Source: Candidatus Omnitrophota bacterium (lineage in GTDB: Bacteria > Omnitrophota > Gorgyraeia > VGKH01 > JBHPFN01). Taken from it: DNA of 62,296 nt. The notes under the pieces were generated by a model. The model ran no database searches. It had not been told where the DNA came from and saw only the letters and a list, made by a program, of their open reading frames with translations. The stretch's first letter is position 1. Each line of letters begins with the position of its first letter. The stretch covers positions 1-62,296 of the forward strand of contig JBHPFN010000006.1 of assembly GCA_042571725.1 (NCBI GenBank), in the 5' to 3' direction. Shown in pieces: positions 2,880 to 37,428 of this stretch. The position numbers and the translations under genes were made by a program.

Positions 2880-2908
2880 TTGACTGTTGCAAAAGACTGC
2901 TGTAGACT
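2880..2908 (+). promoter_or_regulatory. sigma70-like promoter, apparently leaderless (TTGACT-17-TAGACT, 8 nt to ATG 2917)
   Basis: Hexamers read directly from the sequence; no SD between the -10 and the ATG. Confidence 0.4.
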
Positions 2909-2916
2909 ATAATCCA

Positions 2917-4800
2917 ATGACCAAACAGCAATCCTTGCTTCGTAAATCGTTTTCTATCCTTAATTCCGTCATTATTCTTGTTTTTTTCGCCTTCCTGCTT
3001 GATCTAGCTTGTAAATGGACCTCTCAGCATCCTTTTAGCCTCCTAACGCTCTTTATCATTTTCCCCCTTAAGGTTTACCTATTCAGCGGCATCTACGGCA
3101 CTCTCGCAGAGCTTGCCAGCGGCAAAGAAATGGTAGTAAGCGTTGCGCTCTTAAAAAACAATGTAAGAAAATTTTGGAAACCTTATATCGCTTTTGCGCT
3201 TTTTCATGTTGCCGCTCACCCCTACTCACCGCTTGCCGCAACATCATCACTCGGCCCTTTTAATAGTATCATCGCATGTATATTTATCTATTGGGTTATC
3301 GTCAGAAAATGCCTATCGCCTAGGGATCTTGCAAAAAGAAAGATCGCCATTGCACCCCAGTTAACTTTTTCTCTTTTAGCGCTCTATCTGCTGCAGATAG
3401 CTCTTTTCTACCCCCTTGGTTTTACAGGCCTCGGTAGATGGTATTCGCTGATTCTCTTTGCATCACGATATATTCATTTTCTTATCGTGCTCTCAATCAC
3501 CCTGTCAGTGTTCGATGTCTATCCTGAGATTAAAAAAAATCGTATCCATCAAAAGGAAATATTTCTCGTTAATCCGGTAGGCGGGGGAGTTTTTAACAGC
3601 TTCTCTCTTATCGCGACACGCTTCCTATATCCTCCGTTTTTCTTGATCTTAAAAACACTCACCCCGAAACACTATCACTTCAAAGAGTTCAACCGTGTTA
3701 ATTTTTATGATCGCTACTACAAAAGCAATGTGCTGGTCGCCATATCCTGTTACACTTCAAACTGCCAAGAGGCTTACAAAATAGCCAAAGAATTTAAAAA
3801 GCGCGGCGCAACCGTCATTATGGGTGGGCCTCATGTCACCTACCTTTCTGATGAAGCCCTGGAGTTCTGCAACAGTGTAGTGCTGGGGGAAGCCGAAGGC
3901 GTTTGGAAACAAGTCATCAAAGACTACGAAAACGGCTGTCTTCAAGAAAAATACGTTGCCCAGCCCCTTGAGAAGTACTATCAAGAAGTTCAACCTGGAA
4001 TCCTGAATGCTTCCCCCCATATGATCAAAGACTATCTTGAGGCTAGCCGTGGATGTAAGTACCGCTGCGATTTTTGCACGGTGCCTAATTTCAATGGAGT
4101 GCCTCTTAGAAAAAAACCCATTCGCTTGCTTCTGGCACAGATTAAAAGATTTAACCAATCCCACAAAAAAGTATCGTTTCTCGATAATAATATGTACGCG
4201 GACCCGCACTATGCTGAAAAACTTTTTAAGGCGCTAAAACCCCTCAAGATTAAGTGGGGCGGTCAGTGCACAATTGACATTGCCAGAGATGCTCAAACCA
4301 TTCAACTGCTGAAAGATTCTGGCTGCGATCGCATCCTCTTCGGATATGAGATTTTCGGTGATTCTCAAGAAAAGAAACAGGGTGGGAAATACGGCTTATC
4401 GGAAAAATACCTGCAGTTTACCAAAAGAATTAAAAAAGCGCGGATTGCAATAAAAGGCCAGTTTATCTTTGGCTATGATTCTGATAATCTAAAAAATTTG
4501 CTTCGCTTATGGAAATTCAGCTTCCTGCTTAGTCCCTCGCGAATAGGGCTTTCTATCCTCACGCCTGTTCCCGGGGCGCCGATGTATTACACTATACTAC
4601 GAGAAAACCGCTTAACCAGCCTTAACTGGCGCAATTTCGACTGTTTTAACCTTGTTTTTCAACACGCCCGGTTAAAAAATGGTCTGCTCAACGCCTTCTC
4701 GCCTTTACTGCGCTATGTCTTTGTACTTACCGCTTCAAAACAAGGATATGCGATACTCGCGGTTTCAGCATTAGCTCTAATAGTGTTGCGTTTTAAGTAA
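2917..4800 (+). CDS. polytopic-membrane B12-binding radical SAM enzyme, paralog 1
   Basis: N-terminal ~210 aa with about 6 TM helices; B12-binding-type segment 'VLVAISCYTSN...KKRGATVIMGGPHVT'; CX3CX2C 'CKYRCDFC'; C-terminal TM helix. Start moved to ATG 2917 because it aligns with the paralog start (MTKQQSLLRKSF vs MVPREPAFKRSF). Confidence 0.85.
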   Translation: MTKQQSLLRKSFSILNSVIILVFFAFLLDLACKWTSQHPFSLLTLFIIFPLKVYLFSGIYGTLAELASGKEMVVSVALLKNNVRKFWKPYIAFALFHVAAHPYSPLAATSSLGPFNSIIACIFIYWVIVRKCLSPRDLAKRKIAIAPQLTFSLLALYLLQIALFYPLGFTGLGRWYSLILFASRYIHFLIVLSITLSVFDVYPEIKKNRIHQKEIFLVNPVGGGVFNSFSLIATRFLYPPFFLILKTLTPKHYHFKEFNRVNFYDRYYKSNVLVAISCYTSNCQEAYKIAKEFKKRGATVIMGGPHVTYLSDEALEFCNSVVLGEAEGVWKQVIKDYENGCLQEKYVAQPLEKYYQEVQPGILNASPHMIKDYLEASRGCKYRCDFCTVPNFNGVPLRKKPIRLLLAQIKRFNQSHKKVSFLDNNMYADPHYAEKLFKALKPLKIKWGGQCTIDIARDAQTIQLLKDSGCDRILFGYEIFGDSQEKKQGGKYGLSEKYLQFTKRIKKARIAIKGQFIFGYDSDNLKNLLRLWKFSFLLSPSRIGLSILTPVPGAPMYYTILRENRLTSLNWRNFDCFNLVFQHARLKNGLLNAFSPLLRYVFVLTASKQGYAILAVSALALIVLRFK

Positions 4801-4833
4801 GGACAATGTAAATTCTCGAATAAAAAATTGTGG

Positions 4834-4862
4834 TTGACAATTGTTTATTAATGCAATAAAAT
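4834..4862 (+). promoter_or_regulatory. sigma70-like promoter TTGACA-17-TAAAAT upstream of peptide genes 1 and 2
   Basis: Consensus -35 at 4834-4839, 17-nt spacer, -10 at 4857-4862. Confidence 0.5.
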
Positions 4863-4946
4863 AAAGCAGATAGAATAATTATTACTGCATTTCTGGAACT
4901 TCATAAAAGTAGATTCGATAAAACCTAGCAAAAGAAGGATGGAAAA

Positions 4947-5030
4947 ATGGGAGCTATTTCAGTAATTGCATTAGTCGGTATTTTTGTTCTATCGCTGAAC
5001 TTCCTAGATTTTTACTGGTGGATGCGTTAA
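4947..5030 (+). CDS. small hydrophobic peptide, DFYWW family (27 aa: MGAISVIALVGIFVLSLNFLDFYWWMR)
   Basis: ATG with a purine-rich GAAGGA upstream; shares the C-terminal FLDFYWW.R with two other sORFs in this locus. Confidence 0.6.
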   Translation: MGAISVIALVGIFVLSLNFLDFYWWMR

Positions 5031-5083
5031 ATAGCCGCTAATTTTTTTGGCGAGCATGGCGACTTTCCTAACAAGGAGAAAAA

Positions 5084-5170
5084 ATGAGTGCAATAGGAAT
5101 ATCTGTAGTAATAATAGTGTTACTTACTATTAGTTTTAGTTTTTTTGATTTCTACTGGTGGTTGCGTTAA
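5084..5170 (+). CDS. small hydrophobic peptide, DFYWW family (28 aa: MSAIGISVVIIVLLTISFSFFDFYWWLR)
   Basis: AAGGAG SD 5-6 nt upstream of the ATG; 22/28 residues identical to the peptide at 7258-7344. Confidence 0.65.
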   Translation: MSAIGISVVIIVLLTISFSFFDFYWWLR

Positions 5171-5197
5171 AATAGCCGTTAAGTTCTTTAGCAGTAA

Positions 5198-5234
5198 GGC
5201 GAATTTCCCGAACAGGAAAATTCGCCCTTTTTTT
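5198..5234 (+). terminator. intrinsic terminator after peptide gene 2
   Basis: GGCGAATTTCC...GGAAAATTCGCC hairpin followed by CTTTTTTT. Confidence 0.6.
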
Positions 5235-5235
5235 A

Positions 5236-5264
5236 TTGCGCCAATGAATGAACTATTGTACACT
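5236..5264 (+). promoter_or_regulatory. sigma70-like promoter, apparently leaderless (TTGCGC-17-TACACT, 8 nt to ATG 5273)
   Basis: Same geometry as the promoter of paralog 1; no SD. Confidence 0.35.
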
Positions 5265-5272
5265 ATATTTCA

Positions 5273-7168
5273 ATGGTACCCCGCGAACCAGCTTTCAAAA
5301 GATCATTTGAGATACTCAGTTCTACTCTTATCCTCGTAATCATTGCTTTTCTGTTTGATTTAATCTTTAAATCTGCACTTGCAAACTCCCTATCCTGGCT
5401 GACGCTCTTATTCTTCTTACCCGCAAAAATCTATCTTGTAAGCGGCCTCTACGGTAGCTTGGTTGAAATAGTAAGTGGCCAAGAAATGGTAGCAAACGTT
5501 GCACTCTTAAAAAGGAACGTAAAAAGTCTCTGGAAACTCTATGCCCCGTTTGCGCTGTTTGAACTCATTGCATATTTACCCTACTCTACAACCTCCTCTT
5601 TCTCTCTTGTGCCCTTTTCGCTTATTCCTCTTTTTTTCCTTTCCTATGTAATTGTCGCTAAGAAATACCTCAAGCCTTTTAAGATTGAAAGAAAAAAAAT
5701 CAACATAAGCGTTATCAACGTCGCCGTTGTCCTTGCGCTCTTGCTTATCGATATAGTCCTTTCCTTGGTATTAAAGAATATGGCCATAGGAAAATCGCAA
5801 CTGTTACTTATAGCTATTTCTAGATGTCTGCATTTTCTGTTCTTTCTTTACATAACAACTCTTTTTTTAGATGGATACCCGGAGATTTATAAGAAGTTCG
5901 ATGCAAAAAAAGAAATCTTTCTAATTCACCCTGTATGGGGTGGCGTATTTGATCATCTGGGAACAGCCTTAATACGTTACTATCCGGCAGTTTTTATAGT
6001 CCTCAAAGCGCTCACTCCTAAAAATTACACGTTCAGAGAGTTCAATAGGATTAATTGGCATAAAAGATTTTACAAAAAAAATAAATTAGTAGCTATTACC
6101 TGTACCTCCTCAAACTCCTACGAGGCCTACAAAATCGCCAAGGAATTCAAGAAGCGTGGCTCAACGGTCATCATGGGCGGCGTGCACGTTTCTTATTTTT
6201 CAGATGAAGCCTTAGAGTTCTGTGACAGTGTTGTTATCGGTGAAGTCGAGGGAGTGTGGAAGCAGGTAATTCATGATTATGAAAATAACTGCCTTCAAAA
6301 AAAATACCTCGGCTATCCCAAGGAAGATTTCTATACGGAGACCCATCTTGAACTCCTTAATTCTCCTCCTGAAATAATACATAGTTACCTTGAGACGATC
6401 CGAGGATGCAAATATAAATGTGATTTCTGTACCATTCCTTCTTTAAGCGGTCACTCCATCAGACATAAGCCCATCGCTCAAACTGTTGAATTAATTAAGA
6501 AAATGGGACCCCGATACGCAAAAGATGTGAAATTCATCGATAACAACATATATGCAGACCCGGCACACTCCAGAGAACTCTTCAAGGCATTAATCCCTCT
6601 TAATATCCAATGGAAAGCCCTCTGCACCATTGATGTCGCAAAAAACGATGAAATACTATCGCTTGCCAAGAAAAGCGGATGCTCTGGATTTCTCATTGGC
6701 TATGAGATATTTACCGGTTCAAGCGAAAAAAAACAAGGTGGGAAATTTACCCTTTCAGAACAATATATACAGCTAAGCAATAAAATTAAAAAAATCGGCA
6801 TCAGGATTAAAGCACATATGATCATAGGGTGGGACTCTGATAATGTAAAAAGTGTATTTCGGTTATGGAAATTTTGTTTCACTATTAATCCTTATGCGTG
6901 CTCCCTTTCGCTTCTCACCCCCCTGCCCGGATCAAATCTCTTTTACTTCATGATAAAAGAAAACCGAATAACCAATCTGAGCTGGAGAAACTATTCTTAT
7001 CACAGGTTAGCGTTTCGCCACAAACAAATAAATGGCTTTATCCTGGGTAGCTTATTTACTCCCTTGCGTTTTCTTTATCTCTACACCACAACTAAAGTAG
7101 GGTACGGAATAATGGCAATAGCGGCCTTTATGACTTTAGTATTTCTAGGCCTCAGCTTCCTGGCTTGA
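5273..7168 (+). CDS. polytopic-membrane B12-binding radical SAM enzyme, paralog 2
   Basis: Collinear with 2917-4800 over its full length; 'KLVAITCTSSN...KKRGSTVIMGGVHVS', 'CKYKCDFC', N-terminal multi-TM region and C-terminal TM helix. Confidence 0.85.
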   Translation: MVPREPAFKRSFEILSSTLILVIIAFLFDLIFKSALANSLSWLTLLFFLPAKIYLVSGLYGSLVEIVSGQEMVANVALLKRNVKSLWKLYAPFALFELIAYLPYSTTSSFSLVPFSLIPLFFLSYVIVAKKYLKPFKIERKKINISVINVAVVLALLLIDIVLSLVLKNMAIGKSQLLLIAISRCLHFLFFLYITTLFLDGYPEIYKKFDAKKEIFLIHPVWGGVFDHLGTALIRYYPAVFIVLKALTPKNYTFREFNRINWHKRFYKKNKLVAITCTSSNSYEAYKIAKEFKKRGSTVIMGGVHVSYFSDEALEFCDSVVIGEVEGVWKQVIHDYENNCLQKKYLGYPKEDFYTETHLELLNSPPEIIHSYLETIRGCKYKCDFCTIPSLSGHSIRHKPIAQTVELIKKMGPRYAKDVKFIDNNIYADPAHSRELFKALIPLNIQWKALCTIDVAKNDEILSLAKKSGCSGFLIGYEIFTGSSEKKQGGKFTLSEQYIQLSNKIKKIGIRIKAHMIIGWDSDNVKSVFRLWKFCFTINPYACSLSLLTPLPGSNLFYFMIKENRITNLSWRNYSYHRLAFRHKQINGFILGSLFTPLRFLYLYTTTKVGYGIMAIAAFMTLVFLGLSFLA

Positions 7169-7210
7169 TTTATTGTACTGCAGGGTTATGAAAAAACGTA
7201 AAATTTACGC

Positions 7211-7239
7211 TTGACAATTTTAGTGCTGAGCATTACAAT
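7211..7239 (+). promoter_or_regulatory. sigma70-like promoter TTGACA-17-TACAAT upstream of peptide gene 3
   Basis: Hexamers read directly. The 13-nt palindrome CGTAAAATTTACG ends two bases upstream of the -35. Confidence 0.55.
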
Positions 7240-7257
7240 TTAAACAAAAGGAGAAAA

Positions 7258-7344
7258 ATGGGCGCAATAGGAATATCTGTAATAGTCATAGCGTTATTTA
7301 CAATAAGTTTTAGTTTTTTAGATTTCTACTGGTGGTTGCGTTAA
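7258..7344 (+). CDS. small hydrophobic peptide, DFYWW family (28 aa: MGAIGISVIVIALFTISFSFLDFYWWLR)
   Basis: AAGGAG SD upstream of the ATG; conserved C-terminal motif; followed by a strong terminator. Confidence 0.65.
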   Translation: MGAIGISVIVIALFTISFSFLDFYWWLR

Positions 7345-7375
7345 ACCGCTAGTATTGGTCTAGAAAATAATTAAA

Positions 7376-7410
7376 GCCAATTTTCTTTAAAAGAAAATTG
7401 GCTTTTTTTT
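7376..7410. terminator. intrinsic (probably bidirectional) terminator
   Basis: GCCAATTTTCTT/AAGAAAATTGGC stem followed by T8; lies between convergent genes. Confidence 0.7.
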
Positions 7411-7428
7411 AACAATATCGGCGATTGC

Positions 7429-8037
7429 CTACTTAAAACGCTTATACATAAACGGCATGTTTATTACGATATAGACAATAAAATATGCGCTGATGGCAAA
7501 AAGATATACCTTAAGAATGCTTGAGCTAAAAACAAAACAGGCAATGATAAACGCAGCCACAATAGTAATGCGAGATATATTATCAAGCGCCTGGATGCCA
7601 TCCACCAGAGACAGAGTGTCGTATTTCCTGCTGTAAATTTCACCGAGCTGATAAAGGGTTTTTTGGGATAGCTCTTGTTTCTTATAGTCGCAAGTTATCA
7701 GCTGTGTGCTGATCTCTACTACAGTTTTTTTTCGTAAATAGTGCAATCTGATACACGGATACATTAGAATCGGCACCCACCCAAAATAGATATATTCTTC
7801 AGTATACAGCGCAAATAATCCTACGCACAACAACACCGCACAAAGCATTCGCTGTACCCTAATTGCCTTGCTCAAGCGGCAGCATAGCTCTATATAGCCT
7901 TTTACCTTTTCAAGCCGTTGCTTTACCCCGGGTTGCGCGATAAGAAACGAAAACCAGCGGTACACCTGATGGTCGGTTTCAATCGAACTGGCAATCGATT
8001 CGATACTACTTACGTTTTCCTGCTTAGGTACGTCCAT
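7429..8037 (-). CDS. hypothetical membrane protein
   Basis: ORF with about 4 TM segments. Start placed at ATG 8037 (GGGAGA SD-like upstream) rather than the TTG at 8073. Confidence 0.5.
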   Translation of the reverse strand: MDVPKQENVSSIESIASSIETDHQVYRWFSFLIAQPGVKQRLEKVKGYIELCCRLSKAIRVQRMLCAVLLCVGLFALYTEEYIYFGWVPILMYPCIRLHYLRKKTVVEISTQLITCDYKKQELSQKTLYQLGEIYSRKYDTLSLVDGIQALDNISRITIVAAFIIACFVFSSSILKVYLFAISAYFIVYIVINMPFMYKRFK

Positions 8038-24684: not shown

Positions 24685-26313
24685 ATGCAATTTAACCCCT
24701 TTTCAATTCCTCCACTTATTGGCAGCAGCATTCTATTTTTTTTAACAATTTTTGTTTACTTAAAGAACCCAAGATCTCTTGTTAATATTAGTTTTTCCTT
24801 GCTTTGTATAAGTGTTTTTATCTGGCTAATCGCTGACTCCGTTCTTTTTTCTCTAAAAGAGGCTCGTTACGTAATTCTTTTTACCCGATTGGTTTATATT
24901 GGAGTTACAGCGATACCAATAACGGGCCTTCTTTTTGTATTTTGTTTACTAAAAAGAAATTTGAAACAATATAAATTTCTATTTGGAGGCTTAATAGCTG
25001 CATATTGCATCGTGCTCTTGTTAATTTTTGAAACCAAGCTCCTTGTCTCTGGAAGCTATGAATTCTTCTGGGGCTATTACCCGAAAGCAGGCAAATGGCA
25101 TTTCATATATATGGCTTTGTGGCTTTCTTTATATTTAAAAACAATGTATTTAACTTACATCCACGGATATAGAAATATTGCAAATTTATATACTAAAGAG
25201 GAGTGCAACAGAATCAAATACGGCTTTTGGATTCTCGTGTTTGGTTGTCTTGGAATAATTGATTTCTTAGCCAAATATGGATTTGAGGTTTACCCCATCG
25301 GCTACATATTCATTCCAATTTTCGCTTTTATCACAGCGTATTCTATAGTAAAGCATCATATTTTAGATATCGAAATAGTCTTGAAAAAAGGCTTGGTCTA
25401 TTCAATATTAGTAGGAATAATCACCATCATTTACCTTCTTTTGGTTGTCTTAGTTGAAAAGCTATTACAAGGCATGATGGGATACCAATCAATAGTTATA
25501 AGTGCTGCTGCTGCTCTGGTTATAGCGCTATTATTTATTCCTCTCAAAAACAAGATCCAGAATTTTGTAGATAGAGTGTTCTTTAAAGGAACATTTTCTC
25601 AGATTGCCCAAGAAAAGGAGCTAATGCAGCAAGAGCTTGAGCGTTCTGAGCGGCTCAAGGCGGTTGCTACCCTTGCCTCGGGCATGGCACACGAGATAAA
25701 AAACCCATTGACTGCTATAAAGACGTTTAGTGAATATCTGCCAGAGAAAAAGGATGATGCTGAATTTTTGAATAAGTTCTCAAAGATAGTCGGCAGCGAA
25801 GTAGATAGGATCGACTCGCTAGTGCATCAATTGCTTGATTTTGCTAAGCCTGCACCTTTAAAGCTACAGAAAATAAATATTAATGTGCTTCTCGATGAAA
25901 CCCTTACTATATTAAACAATGAATTTATTAAGCATAAAATTACCGTGACCAAGGAACTCACGCTCACGAATAACCGGAAAATTCAAGCAGACCTTAATCA
26001 ATTGAAGCAGGCCTTTTTAAATTTATTCCTCAATGCGATAGATTCAATGCCTAAAGGTGGATCGCTTATCGTAAGAACGCTTAGGCAGACAACTACTAAA
26101 CAATCTATCGAGATCGCAATCAGCGATACCGGATGCGGGATCTCTAAAAAAGATTTACCTCGTCTCTTCGACCCGTTTTTCTCTACGAAAGAAAACGGAG
26201 CGGGCTTAGGACTTTCTATTACGCATGAAATCATCAAAAACCACGGCGGGAAAATTCGTGTAGAAAGCAAAAACGGCAAAGGTTCAACTTTTATGGTGGA
26301 ATTACCTGCTTAG
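24685..26313 (+). CDS. sensor histidine kinase with N-terminal multi-TM (7TM-type) domain
   Basis: About 7 TM helices; H-box 'HEIKNPLTAI'; HATPase 'DTGCGI...GAGLGLSI'. Confidence 0.85.
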   Translation: MQFNPFSIPPLIGSSILFFLTIFVYLKNPRSLVNISFSLLCISVFIWLIADSVLFSLKEARYVILFTRLVYIGVTAIPITGLLFVFCLLKRNLKQYKFLFGGLIAAYCIVLLLIFETKLLVSGSYEFFWGYYPKAGKWHFIYMALWLSLYLKTMYLTYIHGYRNIANLYTKEECNRIKYGFWILVFGCLGIIDFLAKYGFEVYPIGYIFIPIFAFITAYSIVKHHILDIEIVLKKGLVYSILVGIITIIYLLLVVLVEKLLQGMMGYQSIVISAAAALVIALLFIPLKNKIQNFVDRVFFKGTFSQIAQEKELMQQELERSERLKAVATLASGMAHEIKNPLTAIKTFSEYLPEKKDDAEFLNKFSKIVGSEVDRIDSLVHQLLDFAKPAPLKLQKININVLLDETLTILNNEFIKHKITVTKELTLTNNRKIQADLNQLKQAFLNLFLNAIDSMPKGGSLIVRTLRQTTTKQSIEIAISDTGCGISKKDLPRLFDPFFSTKENGAGLGLSITHEIIKNHGGKIRVESKNGKGSTFMVELPA

Positions 26314-27491
26314 ATCTTCCCTTCCTCACACAACTCTAAAAATGCCTTTGCTGCAATAGGAGTGAATTGCGTGCCGCTGCCTTTTTTGATTTCTCCGATT
26401 GCAGTTTCTTTTGGCAGGGCCGGACGGTAGGGCCTGTCGGAAGTCATGGCATCATACACATCGGCAACAGCAATGATCGCGGCAATTAAGGGTATCTCAT
26501 CGCCTTTTAAGCCTTCAGGGTATCCTCTGCCATCATAGCGCTCGTGATGATACTTAACGCCTTTAATAGCTTCTTCTAATTCCTTGATCGGCTGCAGGAT
26601 TTTTATCCCTTGGATTGGATGGGATTTAATTTTTGCAAACTCCTCATCGGTGAGCTTTCCCGGCTTATTTAAGACTGCCTCAGGGATCGCAATCTTTCCG
26701 ATGTCGTGTAATAAACTTGCGATATGTAGATTCTCTAAGAATTTCTGCGGGAGATTAATCTCTTTATAGGTAAGCACTTTCTCGGCGATGAGCAGCGAGT
26801 ATTTCGTGACTCGCTCAGTGTGACCACCGGTATAGTGGTCTTTGGCTTCGATTGCCTCTGCTAAGGCAACCGTAGTATTGATAAACAGTTCGTGGTTAAT
26901 CTTGACCTCGCTCTGCAGATCTTCAAACAGCTGTGCATTGCGAATAGCCATGGCTACGTCATAGGCAAGGGCAACAAAGAAATCTAACTCTCCTTTAAAA
27001 AACTTTTTCTGTGTATTTTTTCTACCTAAAATCAGTACGCCTAAAAGCTCCTTACGGTAATAGCTGGGGATGCATACCCTTGCCGCAAAAAGCTCCATTT
27101 GTGTTTTGACCTCATGCAGAAGTTCGTCGATGCCCTTTTCTTTCTTGATTACCTGATCCTTCCAAATAATGTTATTGATGTTATCATAAACCAAGGCGCC
27201 GCCGTCTTTGCTTAATAAATATTCTTTCTGTAATTTAAAAAATTTGATTAAAGCGTTATTGTTGTCAATGCGTGCGTAGCCCGCCGGGATCTTTATCCCC
27301 TGCTCGCCGCGGGAAACTGTTAAGACATAGGATTCTTTGAGCTTATCATAAAGAAGTATCCCGGCGTGGGTGACGCCGATTTTTCTATTCATCATACGCA
27401 CGACCATCCTAATCAAGGATTTAGGGTCATGCACCAAGATCATGGTTTTGGCTGCTGTTTCTAATTCTTTTTTGTAATCTAAATGTGTCAT
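26310..27491 (-). CDS. GAF plus HD-GYP domain protein (c-di-GMP phosphodiesterase family)
   Basis: 'HDIGKIAIP', 'HHERYDGRGYP'; N-terminal GAF-like region. Confidence 0.85.
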   Translation of the reverse strand: MTHLDYKKELETAAKTMILVHDPKSLIRMVVRMMNRKIGVTHAGILLYDKLKESYVLTVSRGEQGIKIPAGYARIDNNNALIKFFKLQKEYLLSKDGGALVYDNINNIIWKDQVIKKEKGIDELLHEVKTQMELFAARVCIPSYYRKELLGVLILGRKNTQKKFFKGELDFFVALAYDVAMAIRNAQLFEDLQSEVKINHELFINTTVALAEAIEAKDHYTGGHTERVTKYSLLIAEKVLTYKEINLPQKFLENLHIASLLHDIGKIAIPEAVLNKPGKLTDEEFAKIKSHPIQGIKILQPIKELEEAIKGVKYHHERYDGRGYPEGLKGDEIPLIAAIIAVADVYDAMTSDRPYRPALPKETAIGEIKKGSGTQFTPIAAKAFLELCEEGKI

Positions 27492-27493
27492 AG

Positions 27494-27850
27494 CTAGGTC
27501 AATTCTTTTAAAACAACACCCTCCAATTCATCCAGTATTAATGGCTTATGGACATAGTTGAGCGCGCCCCGTTGCTTTGCGGTTTCCATGGCCTCGGGTT
27601 CATCGACGCCGGTGACCATAATAACCTTTATGGCGCTGTCGATCTTCTTTATCTCCCCTAGCACATCCAAGCCACTCATGTCTTCCATGCGGATATCGAG
27701 CAATACCAACTGGGGCTTCTGCTCTTTGATCATTGCAATGGCTTCGTTGCCTCCGGATGCGGTTGCGGTATCGATATTTCTTTTCAGAAAAAAGTTCTTA
27801 GCGAATTCACGTACGTCTTGTTCATCGTCGACGATTAATAATTTCGGCAT
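27494..27850 (-). CDS. response regulator, receiver domain only
   Basis: Start at MPKLLIVDDEQD (ATG 27850, AGGAGGA SD); 'LVLLDIRMEDMSG', 'VIMVTG'. Confidence 0.8.
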   Translation of the reverse strand: MPKLLIVDDEQDVREFAKNFFLKRNIDTATASGGNEAIAMIKEQKPQLVLLDIRMEDMSGLDVLGEIKKIDSAIKVIMVTGVDEPEAMETAKQRGALNYVHKPLILDELEGVVLKELT

Positions 27851-27875
27851 ATCTTCCTCCTTTAATGAGCGCAAA

Positions 27876-30062
27876 CTACTCTTTTGCTGCCGGTAACTTA
27901 ATGGTAAACATCGTTCCTGTGCCGAATTCTGACTCCACATTAACCCGGCCTTTGTGGTTATCAACAATGATCTTCTGAATTACGTACAACCCTAAACCCG
28001 TTCCTTTCTTGCTGGATGCCTTGGTAGTAAAGAACGGTGTAAACAGCCGCTCCTGATCAACATCCTTTACGCCCATGCCGTTATCGATGAAGCGTATCTC
28101 AATGATAGAATCCGTTGCCACTGCCTGGATAGTAACATTACCCCTATAGTTAGGATCTTTTACCTCGTCTCTTCTCTGCATAATAGCATCGTAGGCATTG
28201 TCAATCAAGTTAAAGAAGACTTCTTGGAGCTGGACAAAGTTTCCTTTTATGCAAACAATGTCCTTGGGGTAATCACGTATTAAATCAATTTGGCTGAGCT
28301 TTACCTTATACTGGGCCATGCCTAAAGAGGCGTCAATAAGCTCATCAAGATTTATCGGTTTAAAACCAGATTCACCTGCCCGGGAATATTTTAACAAACC
28401 ATGCACAACCTCCCCGCCCTGCTTGACGTTTTCCTTTACCCTCTCTAAGGCATGACGGATTTGCTGGATGACTTCGCGTATCTGCTCAGGCGAAGAGCTT
28501 TCATTAAGCAACCTTATCGTATCTAAGGTATCTGCTGCAATCATGCCTAAGGCGTGAAAACGGTTGTTAATCTGATGCGAGAGGCCGTCTGCCATGGTAC
28601 CGATAGTAGTCATCTTCTCTGCCTGGAATAGCTGCGTTTGAGTTTCCTTTATATCTTCGTAAAACTGGGCGTTTTCAATTGCTAAAGCTGATTGATTTGC
28701 CAACACTGCGAATACTGCCAGGTCATCAGGAGAATAAAACTTTCCAGAAATCTTCTCTCCTAAAACAATAAAGCCCAGCAAATCTTCTTCTACCAAGCTA
28801 GGCACTACTACAGCAGCGTTTAAAGATTCCATCTGTTTTTGTATAGTGAGCAAGCGTGAGTCATTAAAATCTTCTGCTTGCTGCTTTATCTCTTCATAGA
28901 CAAGCGGTTCTTGCGCTTTCTTTAAGGCCTTTATCAATGAAGAGTCTTCTTTAATCTCAAACTGCGGCGGTGATTTTTTCTTGTCTCTAAACGCTTGCAG
29001 AGTAAATGTATGATTTTTAGGATCTACAAGGTATATAGAACAGCGCTTTATACGGACAGTGCGGGTTACGATATGGACAATCAAATTAAGCAGCTTCTTA
29101 AGATCTCTAATCCTAGTCATACCACTCGATGCCTGTCGCAGGGTACGCTGATACCTCCTCTGCTCTCTTAATAAGGCATCCTCAGCTCTGCGTTGAATGT
29201 AGAGATAGATAAACGGCCCGACTGTTGCCAAAAATGTAGACATTGCCAAAGGTCCAATCCACCAGTTTTGACCGAGCAAAAGAATTAGATATTTTCTGAA
29301 AGCAAAAGCTGTGATAAACGGTGTCCCTAAAACTAATGAATATACAATGACAAAAATACCTGTACGGGTAACTGCCAAAGAGATATCCATCAGTCGATAT
29401 CTAATAATGGCATAAGTAGCAATAATGCAATAGATAGGAATAAGGAAATTACCTAAGTGCATCGGAGGAATATTAATACCAAATATTGGCATGAGAGTTG
29501 CCGTTCCACCTGCAAAACCAATCATTGAGCCCAAACTAAGATATAAAGCTTGATTGCGCTTTATGCCTGAAGTTTTTCTGTAATAACTTACTAATTCGAT
29601 GTTGCCCAATAAGGCGAAAACCAGCCAAGGTAAAAAACATAACGGATAAATAAAATTCGTTGCGAGTGGATAATAAAGATTTATTTCATGGAAAAAATTA
29701 ACATTCGAAAAAAGAATATTTGTAAAATTCAAAGTTACTAAAATCATAAAATAGAAATAAGCAAAAGAAATTGTTTTATTTCTCTTTAGTAAACAAAATG
29801 AAGAAACCATATGATAGAAAGAAATTGAAATAAACAACCCACTTAAGTGCGCGATCTTCCAATAAAAAATTGCCTGAGCTTCAGAAGTTGACCTTCCTAC
29901 TAAAAATATTCCTATCCCCCAAAGAAAAAGAATGCAATTGAATACCCCCCACAAAAGATGCACTCTACTTTTTCCGCGAGAAGAAAGAATAAGTATTAAA
30001 AAGAAAGAGGTGAAAGTAACACATAATCCTGACAACGAAAATAAATTAATTTGTAGTGTCAT
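27876..30062 (-). CDS. sensor histidine kinase: multi-TM N-terminus, GAF, HisKA, HATPase
   Basis: About 7 TM helices; GAF-like 'LLGFIVLGEK'; 'DGLSHQINN' H-box; 'GTGLGLYV'. Confidence 0.85.
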   Translation of the reverse strand: MTLQINLFSLSGLCVTFTSFFLILILSSRGKSRVHLLWGVFNCILFLWGIGIFLVGRSTSEAQAIFYWKIAHLSGLFISISFYHMVSSFCLLKRNKTISFAYFYFMILVTLNFTNILFSNVNFFHEINLYYPLATNFIYPLCFLPWLVFALLGNIELVSYYRKTSGIKRNQALYLSLGSMIGFAGGTATLMPIFGINIPPMHLGNFLIPIYCIIATYAIIRYRLMDISLAVTRTGIFVIVYSLVLGTPFITAFAFRKYLILLLGQNWWIGPLAMSTFLATVGPFIYLYIQRRAEDALLREQRRYQRTLRQASSGMTRIRDLKKLLNLIVHIVTRTVRIKRCSIYLVDPKNHTFTLQAFRDKKKSPPQFEIKEDSSLIKALKKAQEPLVYEEIKQQAEDFNDSRLLTIQKQMESLNAAVVVPSLVEEDLLGFIVLGEKISGKFYSPDDLAVFAVLANQSALAIENAQFYEDIKETQTQLFQAEKMTTIGTMADGLSHQINNRFHALGMIAADTLDTIRLLNESSSPEQIREVIQQIRHALERVKENVKQGGEVVHGLLKYSRAGESGFKPINLDELIDASLGMAQYKVKLSQIDLIRDYPKDIVCIKGNFVQLQEVFFNLIDNAYDAIMQRRDEVKDPNYRGNVTIQAVATDSIIEIRFIDNGMGVKDVDQERLFTPFFTTKASSKKGTGLGLYVIQKIIVDNHKGRVNVESEFGTGTMFTIKLPAAKE

Positions 30063-31468
30063 CTCTTCTTTTCTTTCTTAAGGATTAAATCTGAAATTGC
30101 CAGCCCATTGTAAACAACCCCCCTTATGCCATGGGCCACAGTAGTCCAATGGCCTACAAGATACAAATTGGAGAAAAAAGCCTTCTTCATAAAATTTGAA
30201 ACAAAAACTTGCCTTGGCATAGACGCCCAACCATAAGCTGCTCCTTCGTAATTCTGAGTCCATTTAAATAACGTGTAAGGAGTGGCAGCTTCTTTAAAAA
30301 CAACATGGCCAGAAAGGTCATCAATCAGACTTCTAGCTTTATCAATCAAAACTGAAGTCATTTCGTCTTTCGCTTTTTCCCAATAATCATGATTTTCAAA
30401 ATTAGCATTAACAAAAACCATCAAGCTTCTTTTTTCAGGGAGAACTCTAATCATGAATTCTGCTAAATTTTTTGCCTTCCTTCTCTTTGCGCTGCGATAC
30501 ATCTTTTCTACGTTATAGTAGGGTAAATACCAAATATTTGAGCATGCCGGGAGCTTAACATTCGTGTTCTTGCTTAAACCTAAATACAGAATAAACATTG
30601 AAAGAGATGGAATCATTTTTCTGAGCTGCCTTTTCAATAAATGTCCTACATGACAATTCTCAATTAGACTAAAAAACGTTTGCATAGCATCGCAATTCGA
30701 TACAACATGCTTAGCTGTTACAAAATTGCCCTTGGCGAATTCAACGCCAACTGCTTTCTTATCTTTAATTACTATCTTACTTACCGAGTTAGATAATAAT
30801 AAATTCCCTCCACACTCAATGAATTTTTTGGCCAAATTATTCGATAGGCTCTGCATTCCTCCCTCTGGATAATAACCACCGTCAAGCAAAAACTCTCTAT
30901 AGAGCAGAGTAGCAGAAAAGCTAGAAATTAAAGATGACGGCAAGCCAGCGTTTCCTAATAAAGGAAATGACAAAATAGATTTTAACTTATTATTCTTGAA
31001 GAATTCATCTAGAACTACTTTAAAAGGCTTATATCGTAACTTGAAAAGCGATTCGTTGCTAGAATTCGATAAGAAATTAAAAAAAGATGAAATGTTCTTT
31101 GATTCATCTGGAAAACAGCGTTGAAACTCCCTAATTGTTTTGTTAGAATCGGCATCAAAATTTATTTTGAAATCAGGCGTAACGATAATATCTGATGGAG
31201 TGTGACGATTTAAGCGAATTTCGTTTACTAAGTCTAAATCGTCGAAAAGTTTTCTTAATATGCCTCCTTGCCTAAAACCCCCAAGAGAATGCGCGCAAGC
31301 ATCAAACTTAAAGTTTTTCCTTTTAAAAGAAGTGCAGTATCCACCTGGCTGAAAATTCTTTTCTACAATTAAAACGTCAAGTCCTTTTTTTGCAAGATAG
31401 CAACCGCAGACTAAACCGCCAAGCCCTGCTCCTATTATAACTACATCATAATTCTTAATTTTAGTCAT
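30059..31468 (-). CDS. FAD-dependent oxidoreductase, phytoene-desaturase (CrtI)/amine-oxidase family
   Basis: 'DVVIIGAGLGGLVCGCYLAKKGLDVLIVEKNFQPGGYC' dinucleotide-binding motif; ~470 aa, typical of CrtI-like enzymes. Confidence 0.7.
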   Translation of the reverse strand: MTKIKNYDVVIIGAGLGGLVCGCYLAKKGLDVLIVEKNFQPGGYCTSFKRKNFKFDACAHSLGGFRQGGILRKLFDDLDLVNEIRLNRHTPSDIIVTPDFKINFDADSNKTIREFQRCFPDESKNISSFFNFLSNSSNESLFKLRYKPFKVVLDEFFKNNKLKSILSFPLLGNAGLPSSLISSFSATLLYREFLLDGGYYPEGGMQSLSNNLAKKFIECGGNLLLSNSVSKIVIKDKKAVGVEFAKGNFVTAKHVVSNCDAMQTFFSLIENCHVGHLLKRQLRKMIPSLSMFILYLGLSKNTNVKLPACSNIWYLPYYNVEKMYRSAKRRKAKNLAEFMIRVLPEKRSLMVFVNANFENHDYWEKAKDEMTSVLIDKARSLIDDLSGHVVFKEAATPYTLFKWTQNYEGAAYGWASMPRQVFVSNFMKKAFFSNLYLVGHWTTVAHGIRGVVYNGLAISDLILKKEKKR

Positions 31469-32771
31469 ACTTTTTGAATATTACTGACCCATTATAACCT
31501 GCAAAGCCACACGATAACTTCATAACGATATTAAGTTGCTTCTTAATCAAAGCCTTAACTAGTGCAATATGATACTTATCTTCTACATCATCGCAGTTTA
31601 ATGTAGGAGGAACTATTCCTTTTTGCATTGATAAGAGAGTTATTATCGTTTCGGCAATAGCACTCCCACCCAAGTTATGTCCAATGAATGGTTTAAAGGC
31701 CGAAACCAAATTTTTTGGCTTTTTTCCAAAAATTTCCGTTATGGCCTTTGCTTCATAAGCATCGGTAACTTTAATCCCTACACCATGAGGATTAATTAAA
31801 GAAATATCTTTCGGTCTTAAATCACTACTATCCAGGGCCTGTTTTATAGCTTTTTGATACGATAAACTTCCCGGCAAAGGCAAAGTTACTTTCCAGCCTT
31901 CCAAAGAAAAGCCTCCGCTTAAATACTCAGCATAAATTTTTGCTTTTCTAGACAAGGCATGTTCTAATTCTTCAAAAACCATAGCATAAGCACCATCTCC
32001 CAATGCTATGCCATTGGCTTTTTTTGAAAAAGGCTTTATTTTTCCGTCCTCTGCGTACATTCCTCGCGTCTTAAACCATAAGTGTTTAAACATTGTACAC
32101 GAAAAATCACCCCCTGCAACTATAGCAATTTTGCTCTTTCCGTACTTAATTTGATTTACTGCGGCATCCATGGCGAATAAACCAGAGGCGCAGGCATTAT
32201 TTGTAAATAAAGAATAGCCGTGTATCCCAAAAGCCTTCGCGATTAGAAACAAATACATAAATGTCTGCAGGTCATAACCATGCTGAACAAATTTTTCATA
32301 TAAATGACTGAAGGTATCTTTTTTTGAGAAATCTTTCTTTGAAGCAATTTGCTTTTCCAGAAATTCCAAGGTTTCTTCTAGCAAGCCCTGGCAAAAAGAC
32401 TCAAATCCGGGATGCTCCGCAGTCAAAAAAATACCAACATCATCGCTGTCAGCATTGATTAAAGATAATTTACTATCGTCAAGGGCTAATTTAATTGATG
32501 CCAAAAGGTAAAGCAATAACCTATCTTCTCTATGACCCTTCCATGATTTAATGTCTTCAATTATCCTTTCGTCTGGAAAGAATTTATCAAAATTAAAATC
32601 GACAACTTTATGCAGCAAAAAGCTATCCCAGACTTCTTTTTTTATTGAAAATTTTTCTTTTTCCAAAACTACCCGTTGTTTCAAAATTGAATCCCAAAAG
32701 ATATCTTTCCCAAATCCTAGTGGAGATACAGGACCTAATCCAGTAACGACAACTCTTCTTTTAACCGACAT
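31461..32771 (-). CDS. divergent beta-ketoacyl synthase (KAS I/II-like)
   Basis: 'RVVVTGLGPVSPLG'; active-site 'NNACASG'; 'NPHGVG' and 'IGHNLGGSA' at the positions of the His-His residues; extra insert relative to FabF. Confidence 0.75.
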   Translation of the reverse strand: MSVKRRVVVTGLGPVSPLGFGKDIFWDSILKQRVVLEKEKFSIKKEVWDSFLLHKVVDFNFDKFFPDERIIEDIKSWKGHREDRLLLYLLASIKLALDDSKLSLINADSDDVGIFLTAEHPGFESFCQGLLEETLEFLEKQIASKKDFSKKDTFSHLYEKFVQHGYDLQTFMYLFLIAKAFGIHGYSLFTNNACASGLFAMDAAVNQIKYGKSKIAIVAGGDFSCTMFKHLWFKTRGMYAEDGKIKPFSKKANGIALGDGAYAMVFEELEHALSRKAKIYAEYLSGGFSLEGWKVTLPLPGSLSYQKAIKQALDSSDLRPKDISLINPHGVGIKVTDAYEAKAITEIFGKKPKNLVSAFKPFIGHNLGGSAIAETIITLLSMQKGIVPPTLNCDDVEDKYHIALVKALIKKQLNIVMKLSCGFAGYNGSVIFKKYD

Positions 32772-35694: not shown

Positions 35695-35713
35695 TAAACT
35701 CCCTTAATACAAA

Positions 35714-36140: not shown

Positions 36141-36356
36141 ACTCTCTCTCCGTTCTTGTTTTTTCGAATTATACTGCACTTTATCAACAATCCACTTATC
36201 AATGATCTTTTTATGAAAACGCCAGTCATAGCCGATTTTAAATGCTGGGATCTTACCTGCCCGGGCATACTTATAGACCGTTGCAGGATGGATCTGTAAA
36301 TAGTCAGCCACTTCCTGGATGTCCATTATGTCTCTTGAAGTATCGGTCTTTTTCAT
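36138..36356 (-). CDS. excisionase/MerR-type helix-turn-helix DNA-binding protein
   Basis: 'MDIQEVADYLQIHPATVYKYARAGKIPAFKIGYDWRF' matches the excisionase-family HTH. Confidence 0.7.
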   Translation of the reverse strand: MKKTDTSRDIMDIQEVADYLQIHPATVYKYARAGKIPAFKIGYDWRFHKKIIDKWIVDKVQYNSKKQERRES

Positions 36357-36467
36357 AAAAACTAACCTGTGTTAAAATGAGCCAAACTGAGCCTAAGTAT
36401 GTATAGTTAATATAAATTAATTCGCTCTATTTGTCAAGGATTTTATTGGTAGGGGTGAAAATTCTGT

Positions 36468-37388: not shown

Positions 37389-37428
37389 TATCTGATAATG
37401 AAAAAGAAAAAAGACAAAACGAAATCTG

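What the first reader, a model, noticed from the sequence alone, without database searches (positions are those of the whole stretch)
4947..7344. Three unannotated sORFs encode ~28-aa hydrophobic peptides with an invariant C-terminal DFYWW(L/M)R motif
Three small ORFs fall below the ORF-track cut-off. P1 is at 4947-5030 (MGAISVIALVGIFVLSLNFLDFYWWMR). P2 is at 5084-5170 (MSAIGISVVIIVLLTISFSFFDFYWWLR). P3 is at 7258-7344 (MGAIGISVIVIALFTISFSFLDFYWWLR). P2 and P3 share 22 of 28 residues. P1 has diverged across the hydrophobic stretch but keeps FLDFYWW.R exactly, so selection appears to act on the protein. P2 and P3 have an AAGGAG Shine-Dalgarno site; P1 has GAAGGA. The P1-P2 pair and P3 each sit behind a near-consensus promoter (TTGACA-17-TAAAAT and TTGACA-17-TACAAT), and each unit ends in an intrinsic terminator (5198-5234, 7376-7410). 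Each peptide amounts to one TM-length helix followed by an aromatic cluster and a terminal Arg. I do not recognise this family.
Basis: seen in the sequence. Interest (0 to 1): 0.8.

Follow-up and report, generated by a model that had tools for sequence, protein, structure and literature searches.

The report
Three orphan small membrane-peptide genes
Three tiny unannotated genes, each with its own start and stop signals, very probably encode 27-28-residue membrane peptides; they sit beside two membrane-bound radical SAM enzymes in an Omnitrophota-like genome, have no relatives in any database searched, and their function is unknown.

Summary

Coding is well supported. They are the only intergenic SD-plus-TM sORFs in 62 kb. 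P1's N-terminal half has diverged to 47% nt identity yet remains a stop-free TM-grade helix (p~1e-3). pN is below pS.

P1's non-coding 3' flank is as conserved as the motif (82%), so the copies are mosaics of recent duplication or gene conversion.

The units follow two paralogous, polytopic-membrane, B12-type radical SAM genes. This family is widespread in Candidatus Omnitrophota and is always paired with a convergent ~200-aa membrane protein. Ten homologous loci lack any such sORF, and no homolog appeared in metagenome, viral, plasmid, phage or protein searches.

Best reading: lineage-specific single-pass membrane microproteins, possibly partners or substrates of the rSAMs. Rivals: RiPP-like precursors, type I toxin-like peptides, attenuation leaders, non-coding repeats. 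Interest is moderate.

The parts
2917..4800 (+). rSAM-A: 627-aa polytopic-membrane, B12-binding-domain radical SAM protein. The ATG at 2917 matches the database gene call P0002.
   Evidence: Pfam Radical_SAM and B12-binding. No NCBIfam equivalog reaches its cutoff. 49% identical to rSAM-B.
4834..4862 (+). Sigma-70-type promoter of the P1-P2 unit (TTGACA-17-TAAAAT).
   Evidence: Matches 11/12. One of nine such sites in the window, against 2.3 expected.
4947..5030 (+). sORF P1, 27 aa: MGAISVIALVGIFVLSLNFLDFYWWMR. SD GAAGGA at 4934-4939.
   Evidence: KD19 hydropathy 2.35. The N-terminal half is stop-free and TM-grade, with p~1e-3.
5084..5170 (+). sORF P2, 28 aa: MSAIGISVVIIVLLTISFSFFDFYWWLR. SD AAGGAG at 5073-5078, lying in a weak 6-bp hairpin.
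5198..5237 (+). Intrinsic terminator of the P1-P2 unit (GGCGAAUUUCC...GGAAAAUUCGCC plus U7), 36 nt upstream of rSAM-B.
   Evidence: RNA fold. Missed by the consensus scan because of a bulge.
5273..7168 (+). rSAM-B: 631-aa paralog of rSAM-A. It has six N-terminal TM helices, a Rossmann/B12-like domain, a radical SAM barrel (CxxxCxxC at C379/383/386) and a C-terminal TM helix. It has no SD and only a 7/12 promoter-like site of its own.
   Evidence: AF2 model with pLDDT 88. Closest solved folds are AprD4, MgmA, TsrM, CysS and TokK. Upstream sequence read directly.
7211..7239 (+). Sigma-70-type promoter of the P3 unit (TTGACA-17-TACAAT). It implies a 5' UTR of about 12 nt that holds only the SD.
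   Evidence: Matches 11/12. The SD is unpaired in the folded mRNA.
7258..7344 (+). sORF P3, 28 aa: MGAIGISVIVIALFTISFSFLDFYWWLR. SD AAGGAG at 7248-7253.
   Evidence: 74/84 nt identical to P2.
7313..7368 (+). 23-bp hairpin specific to P3. Its 5' arm is the last ~9 codons (FLDFYWWL), the stop codon lies in the loop, and the 3' arm is a degenerate inverted copy of the motif codons.
   Evidence: dG -26.7 kcal/mol, z -7.95. 17/25 nt match, and 6 of the 8 differences are transitions that give G.U pairs.
7373..7413 (.). Bidirectional intrinsic terminator shared by the P3 unit and the convergent 202-aa gene.
   Evidence: 15-bp stem followed by a T-run, found on both strands.
7429..8037 (-). Conserved ~200-aa membrane protein. 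It is the invariable convergent partner of this rSAM family and has no known domain or fold.
   Evidence: 31-42% identical to the convergent genes in L002, L004 and L005. No Pfam or NCBIfam hit. AF2 model with pLDDT 77 has no PDB fold match.

Best explanation
P1, P2 and P3 are genuine, translated small genes encoding single-pass inner-membrane microproteins. They form a family restricted, as far as can be seen, to this poorly sampled Omnitrophota-like lineage.

Shown:
- Each unit has a near-consensus promoter, an exposed SD, an ATG, a TM-length hydrophobic helix and a terminator. The helix ends in an aromatic belt (F-Y-W-W) plus Arg.
- The three copies are mosaics produced by local duplication or gene conversion.
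- They lie on the same strand as, and directly downstream of, each of two paralogous polytopic-membrane B12-type radical SAM genes. The P1-P2 unit, with its terminator, lies immediately upstream of rSAM-B, which lacks a convincing promoter or SD of its own.

Inferred:
- The peptides insert N-out/C-in. The N-terminus is uncharged, and Asp21 and the terminal Arg lie on the cytoplasmic side, so the DFYWW(L/M)R tail sits at the cytoplasmic membrane interface. The catalytic domains of the rSAMs must also lie on that side.
- They act inside the membrane on the neighbouring rSAM / 202-aa-protein module, packing through their Gly/Ser/Ala-rich helix face as accessory or modulatory subunits.
- Abundant peptide and scarce enzyme are produced from the strong promoter plus leaky terminator.

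My confidence that they are translated membrane peptides is about 0.75. My confidence that they are functionally tied to the rSAM module in any way is about 0.4.
For: - Sequence signals.
- They are the only intergenic SD-plus-TM sORFs in 62 kb.
- In-frame indel and conservative replacements; pN/pS is 0.37 for P2-P3 and 0.46 for P1-P2; within the motif, pN is 0.05-0.10 against pS of about 0.6.
- P1's N-terminal half has near-random nt identity to P2 and P3 yet is hydrophobic and stop-free, with p=0.0013 to 0.0003.
- KD19 hydropathy is 2.35-2.60.
- The flanking genes are membrane-embedded rSAMs with 6+1 TM helices. They are followed by a conserved membrane partner.
- No known RNA family covers the region.
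Against: - There is no expression or translation data.
- No homologous sORF was found anywhere. Searches covered the metagenome motif scan, viral contigs, plasmids and phages, and protein databases.
- In ten homologous rSAM loci the rSAM(s) abut the convergent partner gene (gaps of about 50 bp or less, or overlapping; up to 90 bp between tandem rSAMs). No sORF is present, so the rSAM module does not need these peptides.
- The closeness of the two units to each other is explained by local duplication. Linkage to the rSAMs therefore rests on essentially one insertion event.
- The statistics rest on only three short paralogs.
Confidence: 0.45

Rival explanations
1. RiPP-like or peptide-cofactor precursors. 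The peptides are substrates of the adjacent B12-type radical SAM enzymes. The enzymes would methylate or cross-link the invariant aromatic C-terminal tail (DFYWWxR), with the TM helix acting as a membrane-embedded 'leader' recognised by the enzyme's TM domain.
For: - The peptides are short, in multiple copies, with an invariant aromatic C-terminal motif and a variable remainder. They lie next to, and on the same strand as, two rSAM genes.
- The order strong promoter, precursor copies, terminator, enzyme gene without its own signals resembles nisA- and pqqA-type operons (own knowledge).
- The closest solved folds include enzymes that act on Trp or on proteins: TsrM and MgmA.
- The inferred topology puts the tail on the same side as the catalytic domain.
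Against: - The rSAM family is conserved in hundreds of Omnitrophota sequences. In ten inspected loci it has no such sORF within 5-8 kb.
- The enzyme has no RRE/PqqD or SPASM domain.
- There is no protease or exporter nearby; the neighbours are STAS, a 2-hydroxyacid dehydrogenase and an HD-GYP protein.
- P2 and P3 are recent copies, whereas rSAM-A and rSAM-B are ancient paralogs.
Confidence: 0.15
2. Type I toxin-like, or otherwise free-standing, membrane-active peptides with no functional link to the rSAM genes. They would be small hydrophobic toxins amplified in tandem in intergenic DNA.
For: - The peptides are under 30 aa and hydrophobic, occur as tandem plus nearby copies in intergenic regions, and have their own promoter and terminator. 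These are the features used to find type I toxins (Fozo et al. 2010; own knowledge).
- The only Pfam whisper is Ibs_toxin, at E=0.23, which is not significant.
- The 23-bp intramolecular duplex over the end of the P3 ORF would be an RNase III-type substrate.
- The sORFs are absent from orthologous loci, as expected for a mobile or selfish module.
Against: - No minus-strand promoter-like site overlaps or faces any of the ORFs.
- There is no Rfam antitoxin RNA.
- The SD of P3 is fully exposed on a ~12-nt leader, and the P1-P2 mRNA has no unusual structure (z -0.94). Toxin mRNAs are normally translationally locked.
- There is only one basic residue at the C-terminus.
Confidence: 0.15
3. Regulatory leader peptides. 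Translation through the F-Y-W-W codons would sense aromatic aminoacyl-tRNA supply (or free Trp) and control read-through of the downstream terminator into rSAM-B.
For: - Tandem Trp codons preceded by Phe and Tyr codons lie at the very end of a short ORF, as in trpL (own knowledge). They are followed by an intrinsic terminator and then by rSAM-B, which has no SD and only a 7/12 promoter-like site.
- In P3 the aromatic codons form the 5' arm of a strong hairpin just before the terminator, a '1:2 / 3:4'-like layout.
Against: - P3 is followed by a convergent gene, so there is nothing to regulate.
- No competing antiterminator pairing was found for P2, and only a 7-bp AU pairing for P3 (inspection).
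- The hairpin is not shared by P1 or P2.
- The TM-grade N-terminal half is maintained in the diverged P1, which a leader peptide would not require.
- rSAM-B has no known link to aromatic amino-acid supply.
Confidence: 0.07
4. Non-coding repeated elements. The units would be duplicated promoter/terminator cassettes or small RNAs, with the open frames incidental in T-rich DNA.
For: - There is no homolog or expression evidence.
- The motif is no better conserved than P1's non-coding 3' flank.
- T-rich sequence readily encodes hydrophobic residues; 33% of shuffles of P1's N-terminal half are stop-free.
Against: - All three copies have a well-placed SD and ATG, the same frame, length (27/28/28) and stop, and an in-frame indel.
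- The joint probability of a stop-free, TM-grade P1 segment is about 1e-3.
- pN is below pS.
- No RNA family matches, and the P1-P2 transcript has no conserved or unusual structure.
Confidence: 0.08

Closest known systems
Bacterial small single-pass membrane proteins encoded beside larger membrane proteins (e.g. KdpF, CydX, AcrZ, MgtS)
   Same: They are 25-50 aa with one TM helix and interfacial aromatic or basic residues. They are routinely missed by annotation and are encoded next to polytopic membrane proteins.
   Different: - There is no sequence relationship.
- Each unit here has its own strong promoter and terminator rather than an in-operon position.
- There are three paralogs.
- They are not co-conserved with the neighbouring genes in ten other loci.
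Type I toxin-antitoxin toxins (Ibs, Ldr, Fst, TisB, PepA1 and similar)
   Same: The peptides are tiny and hydrophobic, lie in intergenic DNA, occur as tandem or nearby duplicated copies, and form independent transcription units.
   Different: - No antisense or overlapping sRNA signals were found.
- The SD is exposed.
- There is no family-level sequence match (Ibs_toxin E=0.23, below the cutoff).
Radical-SAM-modified peptide precursors (PqqA/PqqE, MftA/MftC, darobactin DarA/DarE, B12-rSAM-methylated RiPPs such as bottromycin and polytheonamide)
   Same: The peptides are short and unannotated, with an invariant C-terminal, aromatic-rich motif. They occur in multiple copies next to radical SAM genes, and a terminator separates peptide and enzyme genes.
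   Different: - The enzyme has a polytopic TM domain and no RRE or SPASM domain.
- The would-be leader is a TM helix.
- There are no protease or transporter genes.
- The enzyme family occurs without the peptides elsewhere.
Attenuation leader peptides (TrpL, PheL)
   Same: It is a short ORF with consecutive aromatic codons near the stop, followed by a hairpin and an intrinsic terminator.
   Different: - One copy has no downstream gene.
- There is no antiterminator alternative.
- A TM-length hydrophobic segment is conserved.
- The downstream gene is not an aromatic amino-acid gene.

Membership tests
Type I toxin-antitoxin system | Toxin is a peptide of under ~60 aa with one hydrophobic TM segment | tested here: met
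   The peptides are 27-28 aa with KD19 hydropathy of 2.35-2.60.
Type I toxin-antitoxin system | Cis-encoded antisense or overlapping sRNA antitoxin with its own promoter | tested here: inconclusive
   No minus-strand promoter-like site faces or overlaps any ORF, and there is no Rfam antitoxin family. A consensus scan cannot exclude a weak or non-sigma-70 promoter.
Type I toxin-antitoxin system | Toxin mRNA folded so that translation is restrained (SD sequestered, long structured leader) | tested here: not met
   The P3 SD is unpaired on a ~12-nt leader. The P1-P2 mRNA has z -0.94. Only a weak 6-bp hairpin covers the P2 SD.
Type I toxin-antitoxin system | Sequence membership in a described toxin family | tested here: not met
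   The best Pfam hit is Ibs_toxin at E=0.23, 11.9 bits against a cutoff of 27, and for P2 only.
Type I toxin-antitoxin system | Toxicity on over-expression, neutralised by the RNA | not testable with these tools
   This needs an experiment.
rSAM-dependent RiPP / peptide-derived cofactor cluster | Short precursor gene adjacent and co-directional to the radical SAM gene | tested here: met
   P1-P2 lie between rSAM-A and rSAM-B, and P3 lies 90 nt after rSAM-B. All are on the + strand.
rSAM-dependent RiPP / peptide-derived cofactor cluster | Precursor and enzyme co-occur across genomes | tested here: not met
   Eight loci with DNA and two gene tables were inspected. In all of them the rSAM(s) abut the convergent partner gene, and no motif or SD-plus-TM sORF is present. 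Caveat: all relatives are at most 50% identical.
rSAM-dependent RiPP / peptide-derived cofactor cluster | Peptide-recognition (RRE/PqqD) or SPASM/twitch domain in the enzyme | tested here: not met
   Only B12-binding and Radical_SAM domains are detected. The AF2 model shows TM helices, a Rossmann domain and a barrel.
rSAM-dependent RiPP / peptide-derived cofactor cluster | Leader protease and/or exporter encoded nearby | tested here: not met
   The neighbours are a STAS protein, a 2-hydroxyacid dehydrogenase, a 202-aa membrane protein and an HD-GYP/HAMP protein.
rSAM-dependent RiPP / peptide-derived cofactor cluster | Peptide is chemically modified by the enzyme | not testable with these tools
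   This needs co-expression and mass spectrometry.
Ribosome-mediated attenuation leader | Short ORF with a run of regulatory codons near its end | tested here: met
   Phe-Tyr-Trp-Trp codons occupy positions -6 to -3 before the stop in all three copies.
Ribosome-mediated attenuation leader | Terminator between the leader ORF and a co-directional regulated gene | tested here: not met
   This holds for P1-P2 and rSAM-B. P3's terminator, however, is followed by a convergent gene.
Ribosome-mediated attenuation leader | Mutually exclusive antiterminator structure | tested here: not met
   None appears in the folds of the P2 3' region. For P3 only a 7-bp AU alternative was found by inspection.
Known small-membrane-protein families (KdpF, CydX, AcrZ and similar) | Sequence match to the family model | tested here: not met
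   There are no NCBIfam or Pfam hits, and no hit in 1.84 billion representative proteins.

The most novel reading that the evidence does not exclude
The peptides are membrane-anchored substrates of the flanking polytopic B12-type radical SAM enzymes. This would be a RiPP- or cofactor-like system in which the 'leader' is a transmembrane helix recognised inside the bilayer, and the invariant cytoplasmic DFYWWxR tail is methylated or cross-linked. It would also give the first handle on the chemistry of a radical SAM family that is widespread in Omnitrophota and has no assigned function.
Probability: 0.13. Interest if true: 0.8.

Novelty: new member of a known kind. Interest (0 to 1): 0.4.

Why it matters
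Small hydrophobic proteins are systematically missing from annotation, especially in candidate phyla known only from metagenomes. These three are a clean, signal-rich example with no relatives in any catalogue searched.

Their position around two membrane-embedded B12-type radical SAM enzymes is the only lead to function. That enzyme family is conserved across Omnitrophota together with an unknown 200-aa membrane partner, and it has never been characterised. If the peptides turn out to be partners or substrates, they would make that enzyme family experimentally tractable. If they are not, they are simply one more orphan micro-protein or toxin-like family.

Tried and rejected
1. Searches for homologs. 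All were negative.
- A metagenome scan for DFYWWxR-stop gave 39 stretches. None was a homolog, and many are the antisense strand of sigma-54 activator genes (IAATNKN...FREDLY).
- The same motif scan on viral contigs gave six copies of one unrelated element.
- A concatenated-peptide search of 5.8 billion proteins found nothing.
- A profile search of 1.84 billion representatives found nothing.
- tblastn against plasmids and phages found nothing.
The first scan had returned one spurious Spirochaetes locus.

2. Looking up the window's own contig found nothing on record.

3. Origin of the sORFs from the C-terminal TM helix of the rSAM genes was rejected. DNA and protein local alignments were not significant after multiple testing (p 0.03-0.67). 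Family C-termini are variable, although a few end in WW.

4. A fourth copy or relics in the window were not found with nhmmer or hmmsearch. The inverted relic after P3 is not significant as a sequence match (E=21), only as a hairpin.

5. The sORFs are not a defence-system component. PADLOC gave only a weak generic rSAM hit (PDC-M51A, 1e-7 to 1e-8).

6. Structure-based identification of the 202-aa partner gave no fold match.

7. Literature searches for the motif, and for Omnitrophota radical SAM enzymes or small proteins, returned nothing relevant.
Full report
OBSERVATION

- P1 is at 4947-5030: MGAISVIALVGIFVLSLNFLDFYWWMR.
- P2 is at 5084-5170: MSAIGISVVIIVLLTISFSFFDFYWWLR.
- P3 is at 7258-7344: MGAIGISVIVIALFTISFSFLDFYWWLR.

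P2 and P3 share 22/28 residues, and all three end in DFYWW(L/M)R-TAA. Each ATG is preceded by AAGGAG (P2, P3) or GAAGGA (P1) at normal spacing.

The promoter-like sites TTGACA-17-TAAAAT (4834-4862) and TTGACA-17-TACAAT (7211-7239) match 11/12. My own scan finds only nine such sites on both strands of the 62-kb window, against 2.3 expected from shuffles. Most of the others I checked also sit in front of genes.

The P3 unit ends in a 15-bp bidirectional terminator at 7373-7405 plus a T-run. The P1-P2 unit ends in a bulged-stem terminator at 5198-5226 plus U7, which is seen by folding but missed by the ungapped scan.

IS IT CODING?

Several independent lines say yes.
- In the whole window there are 13 SD-preceded sORFs of 18-55 codons with a TM-grade hydrophobic stretch. 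Only three lie outside long reading frames, and they are P1-P3.
- The copies keep frame, length (27/28/28 codons) and stop codon, and they differ by a one-codon in-frame indel.
- Nei-Gojobori counts give pN/pS = 0.09/0.24 for P2-P3 and 0.34/0.73 for P1-P2. Within the last eight codons, pN is 0.05-0.10 against pS of about 0.6. These are very small numbers of sites.
- P1's first 19 codons after the ATG are only 47% identical in nucleotides to P2 and P3, which is essentially unrelated sequence. They still form a stop-free helix with KD15 hydropathy of 2.79. Only 0.13% of shuffles of that segment, and 0.03% of random sequences of intergenic composition, do as well.
- KD19 hydropathy is 2.35-2.60 for all three peptides.
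- No Rfam family matches the region.
- The P1-P2 transcript is not unusually structured, with z -0.94.

That inference is weaker than it looks.
- P1's non-coding 3' flank is 82% identical to P2's (41/50). This is the same level as the motif codons (20/24).
- P2 and P3 share the ORF (74/84) and the upstream region (34/46), but their 3' flanks share much less (32/48).

The copies are therefore mosaics of recent local duplication or gene conversion. The 24-27-nt motif is the only segment common to both homology tracts. Purifying selection on the motif remains plausible, since the substitutions in it are synonymous or Leu/Met/Phe exchanges, but it is not demonstrated.

The sORF units flank two paralogous genes on the same strand: rSAM-A (2917-4800) and rSAM-B (5273-7168), which are 49% identical. 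Both proteins have Pfam Radical_SAM and B12-binding domains. No NCBIfam equivalog comes anywhere near its cutoff.

An AlphaFold2 model of rSAM-B (pLDDT 88) shows the following architecture:
- six N-terminal TM helices;
- a Rossmann (B12-type) domain;
- the radical SAM barrel, with invariant CxxxCxxC;
- a C-terminal TM helix.

The closest solved folds are the generic class-B-like enzymes AprD4, MgmA, TsrM, CysS and TokK.

Directly after P3 comes a convergent 202-aa membrane protein (7429-8037). It has no domain hit and no fold match.

rSAM-B has no SD and only a 7/12 promoter-like site of its own. It may therefore depend on read-through of the P2 terminator.

COMPARATIVE EVIDENCE

The rSAM family has at least 338 database relatives with the same length and architecture. 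Where a source names them, the name is Candidatus Omnitrophota/Omnitrophica. No external homolog is more than 50% identical to rSAM-A or rSAM-B, which are as far from each other as from any of these homologs. The window's lineage is thus poorly sampled.

I retrieved eight homologous loci with DNA (L002, L004, L005, L045, L046, L053, L054, L055) and two with gene tables only. In every one, one to three rSAM genes are followed by the convergent ~200-aa gene, which is 31-42% identical to the window's copy. Gaps to that gene are about 50 bp or less, or the genes overlap, and gaps between tandem rSAM genes reach at most 90 bp. This leaves no room for a sORF. Motif, HMM and SD-plus-TM scans of the 5-8 kb flanks find none.

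Searches beyond these loci were also negative.
- The metagenome scan for D-F-Y-W-W-x-R-stop returned 39 stretches. None has a hydrophobic ORF in front of the motif, and many are the reverse strand of sigma-54 activator genes (IAATNKN...FREDLY).
- Viral contigs, plasmids and phages gave nothing.
- The 5.8-billion-protein collection and a full HMMER profile search of 1.84 billion representatives gave nothing.

Peptides under 30 aa are rarely called as genes, so the protein searches are weak negatives. The six-frame and motif searches are stronger, but they required the exact motif.

RNA FEATURES

The P3 mRNA would start about 12 nt before the ATG with its SD unpaired. Its last ~9 codons form the 5' arm of a 23-bp hairpin at 7313-7368 (dG -26.7 kcal/mol, z -7.95). 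The stop codon lies in the loop.

The 3' arm of this hairpin reads, on the minus strand, as a degenerate copy of the motif codons (F-L-D-Q-Y-stop-R). It matches 17/25 nt, and six of the eight differences are transitions that preserve pairing as G.U.

This hairpin is absent from P1 and P2, so it is not a family feature. It may be a relic of an inverted duplication retained as a stabilising or processing structure.

The P1-P2 spacer is homologous both to P2's terminator and to P3's promoter region. It holds the P2 SD in a weak 6-bp hairpin.

INTERPRETATION

The best-supported reading is that these are genuine, strongly expressed genes for single-pass membrane microproteins, specific to this lineage. 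The topology is inferred: the N-terminus is uncharged, and Asp21 and the terminal Arg flank an aromatic belt. This suggests an N-out/C-in orientation, with the DFYWWxR tail at the cytoplasmic interface, on the side where the rSAM catalytic domains must sit.

A functional tie to the rSAM / 202-aa module, as accessory subunit or as substrate, is suggested by four things:
- position on the same strand;
- the shared membrane location;
- the layout promoter, peptides, terminator, enzyme;
- the multi-copy peptide with an invariant aromatic C-terminus, which recalls PqqA-, MftA- and darobactin-type precursors (own knowledge).

Against that tie:
- the module exists without the peptides in every other locus seen;
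- there is no RRE, SPASM, protease or exporter;
- P2 and P3 are recent copies beside anciently diverged enzymes, so linkage rests on essentially one insertion plus local duplication.

The type I-toxin-like reading fits the size, hydrophobicity, tandem amplification and patchy distribution. It lacks any sign of an antisense RNA or of translational locking.

The attenuation-leader reading fits the terminal F-Y-W-W codons and the terminator before rSAM-B. It fails for P3, which has a convergent downstream gene. It also lacks an antiterminator and does not explain the conserved TM character.

A purely non-coding origin is disfavoured by the coding tests above.

My probabilities are:
- membrane microprotein, partner unknown or the rSAM module: about 0.45;
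- RiPP-like substrate: 0.15;
- toxin-like or free-standing: 0.15;
- leader peptide: 0.07;
- non-coding: 0.08;
- the remainder unassigned.

NOVELTY AND SCORE

The kind (tiny hydrophobic bacterial proteins) is well known, but this family is unrecorded. With no homologs, no expression data and no conserved linkage, it is a well-formed orphan rather than a demonstrated new system.

The most novel reading not excluded is a TM-helix-anchored peptide substrate of a membrane-embedded B12 radical SAM enzyme. That would be notable, but I give it only about 0.13.

Overall interest is 0.4.

Noticed in passing
window 2917-8037; loci L002, L004, L005, L045, L046, L053, L054, L055: A conserved, uncharacterised Omnitrophota module. 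One to three tandem ~630-650-aa radical SAM proteins (six N-terminal TM helices, B12-type Rossmann domain, rSAM barrel, C-terminal TM helix) are always followed by a convergent ~200-aa membrane protein. That protein carries a conserved VYRWF motif and a PF(I/M/F)YK..K C-terminus, and has no domain or fold match.
   Followed up: partly
window 7313-7368: A P3-specific 23-bp hairpin (dG -26.7 kcal/mol, z -7.95). Its 3' arm is a degenerate inverted copy of the motif codons (minus strand reads FLDQY*R), and most differences are G.U-preserving transitions. It could be a relic of an inverted duplication or a selected mRNA structure.
   Followed up: partly
window 5031-5083 compared with 5171-5237 and 7205-7257: The P1-P2 spacer is homologous both to P2's terminator region (82%) and to P3's promoter region (74%). 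A head-to-tail duplication therefore turned a terminator arm into the P2 Shine-Dalgarno site and lost the promoter hexamers.
   Followed up: partly
window 2905-2919 and 5259-5275: Both rSAM genes lack a Shine-Dalgarno site and share the start context CTATA(A/T)T(C/T)CAATG. rSAM-B has only a 7/12 promoter-like site (TTGCGC-17-TACACT), positioned as for a leaderless mRNA. Its expression may depend on terminator read-through.
   Followed up: no
window 13133-21118 (-): A 2484-aa RHS/Tc-toxin-like polymorphic toxin (SpvB, TcdB_toxin_midN, FG-GAP, Laminin_G_3, RHS repeats, PT-HINT) lies immediately next to an IS200/Y1 transposase gene.
   Followed up: no
window 34468-39395 (-): A fatty-acid synthesis cluster (plsX, fabH, fabD, fabF-like). 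A gene for a 23S-rRNA-intervening-sequence-type protein (35747-36268) is inserted between fabD and a ketoacyl synthase. A second ketoacyl synthase and an amine-oxidase-type flavoprotein lie further downstream at 30059-32771, beyond a histidine kinase gene.
   Followed up: no
window 8100-9506, 24327-30062, 32835-34478: Signalling genes are unusually dense here: three HisKA_7TM histidine kinases, two HD-GYP-type HD_5 proteins (one with HAMP) and stand-alone receiver domains.
   Followed up: no
loci L008, L009, L014, L017, L021, L022, L025-L027, L029, L030, L033, L034, L036, L043: The back-translated DFYWWLR-stop pattern is a recurrent false positive. It is the reverse complement of the conserved ...IAATNKN... 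segment of sigma-54-dependent activator genes, followed by FREDLY.
   Followed up: yes
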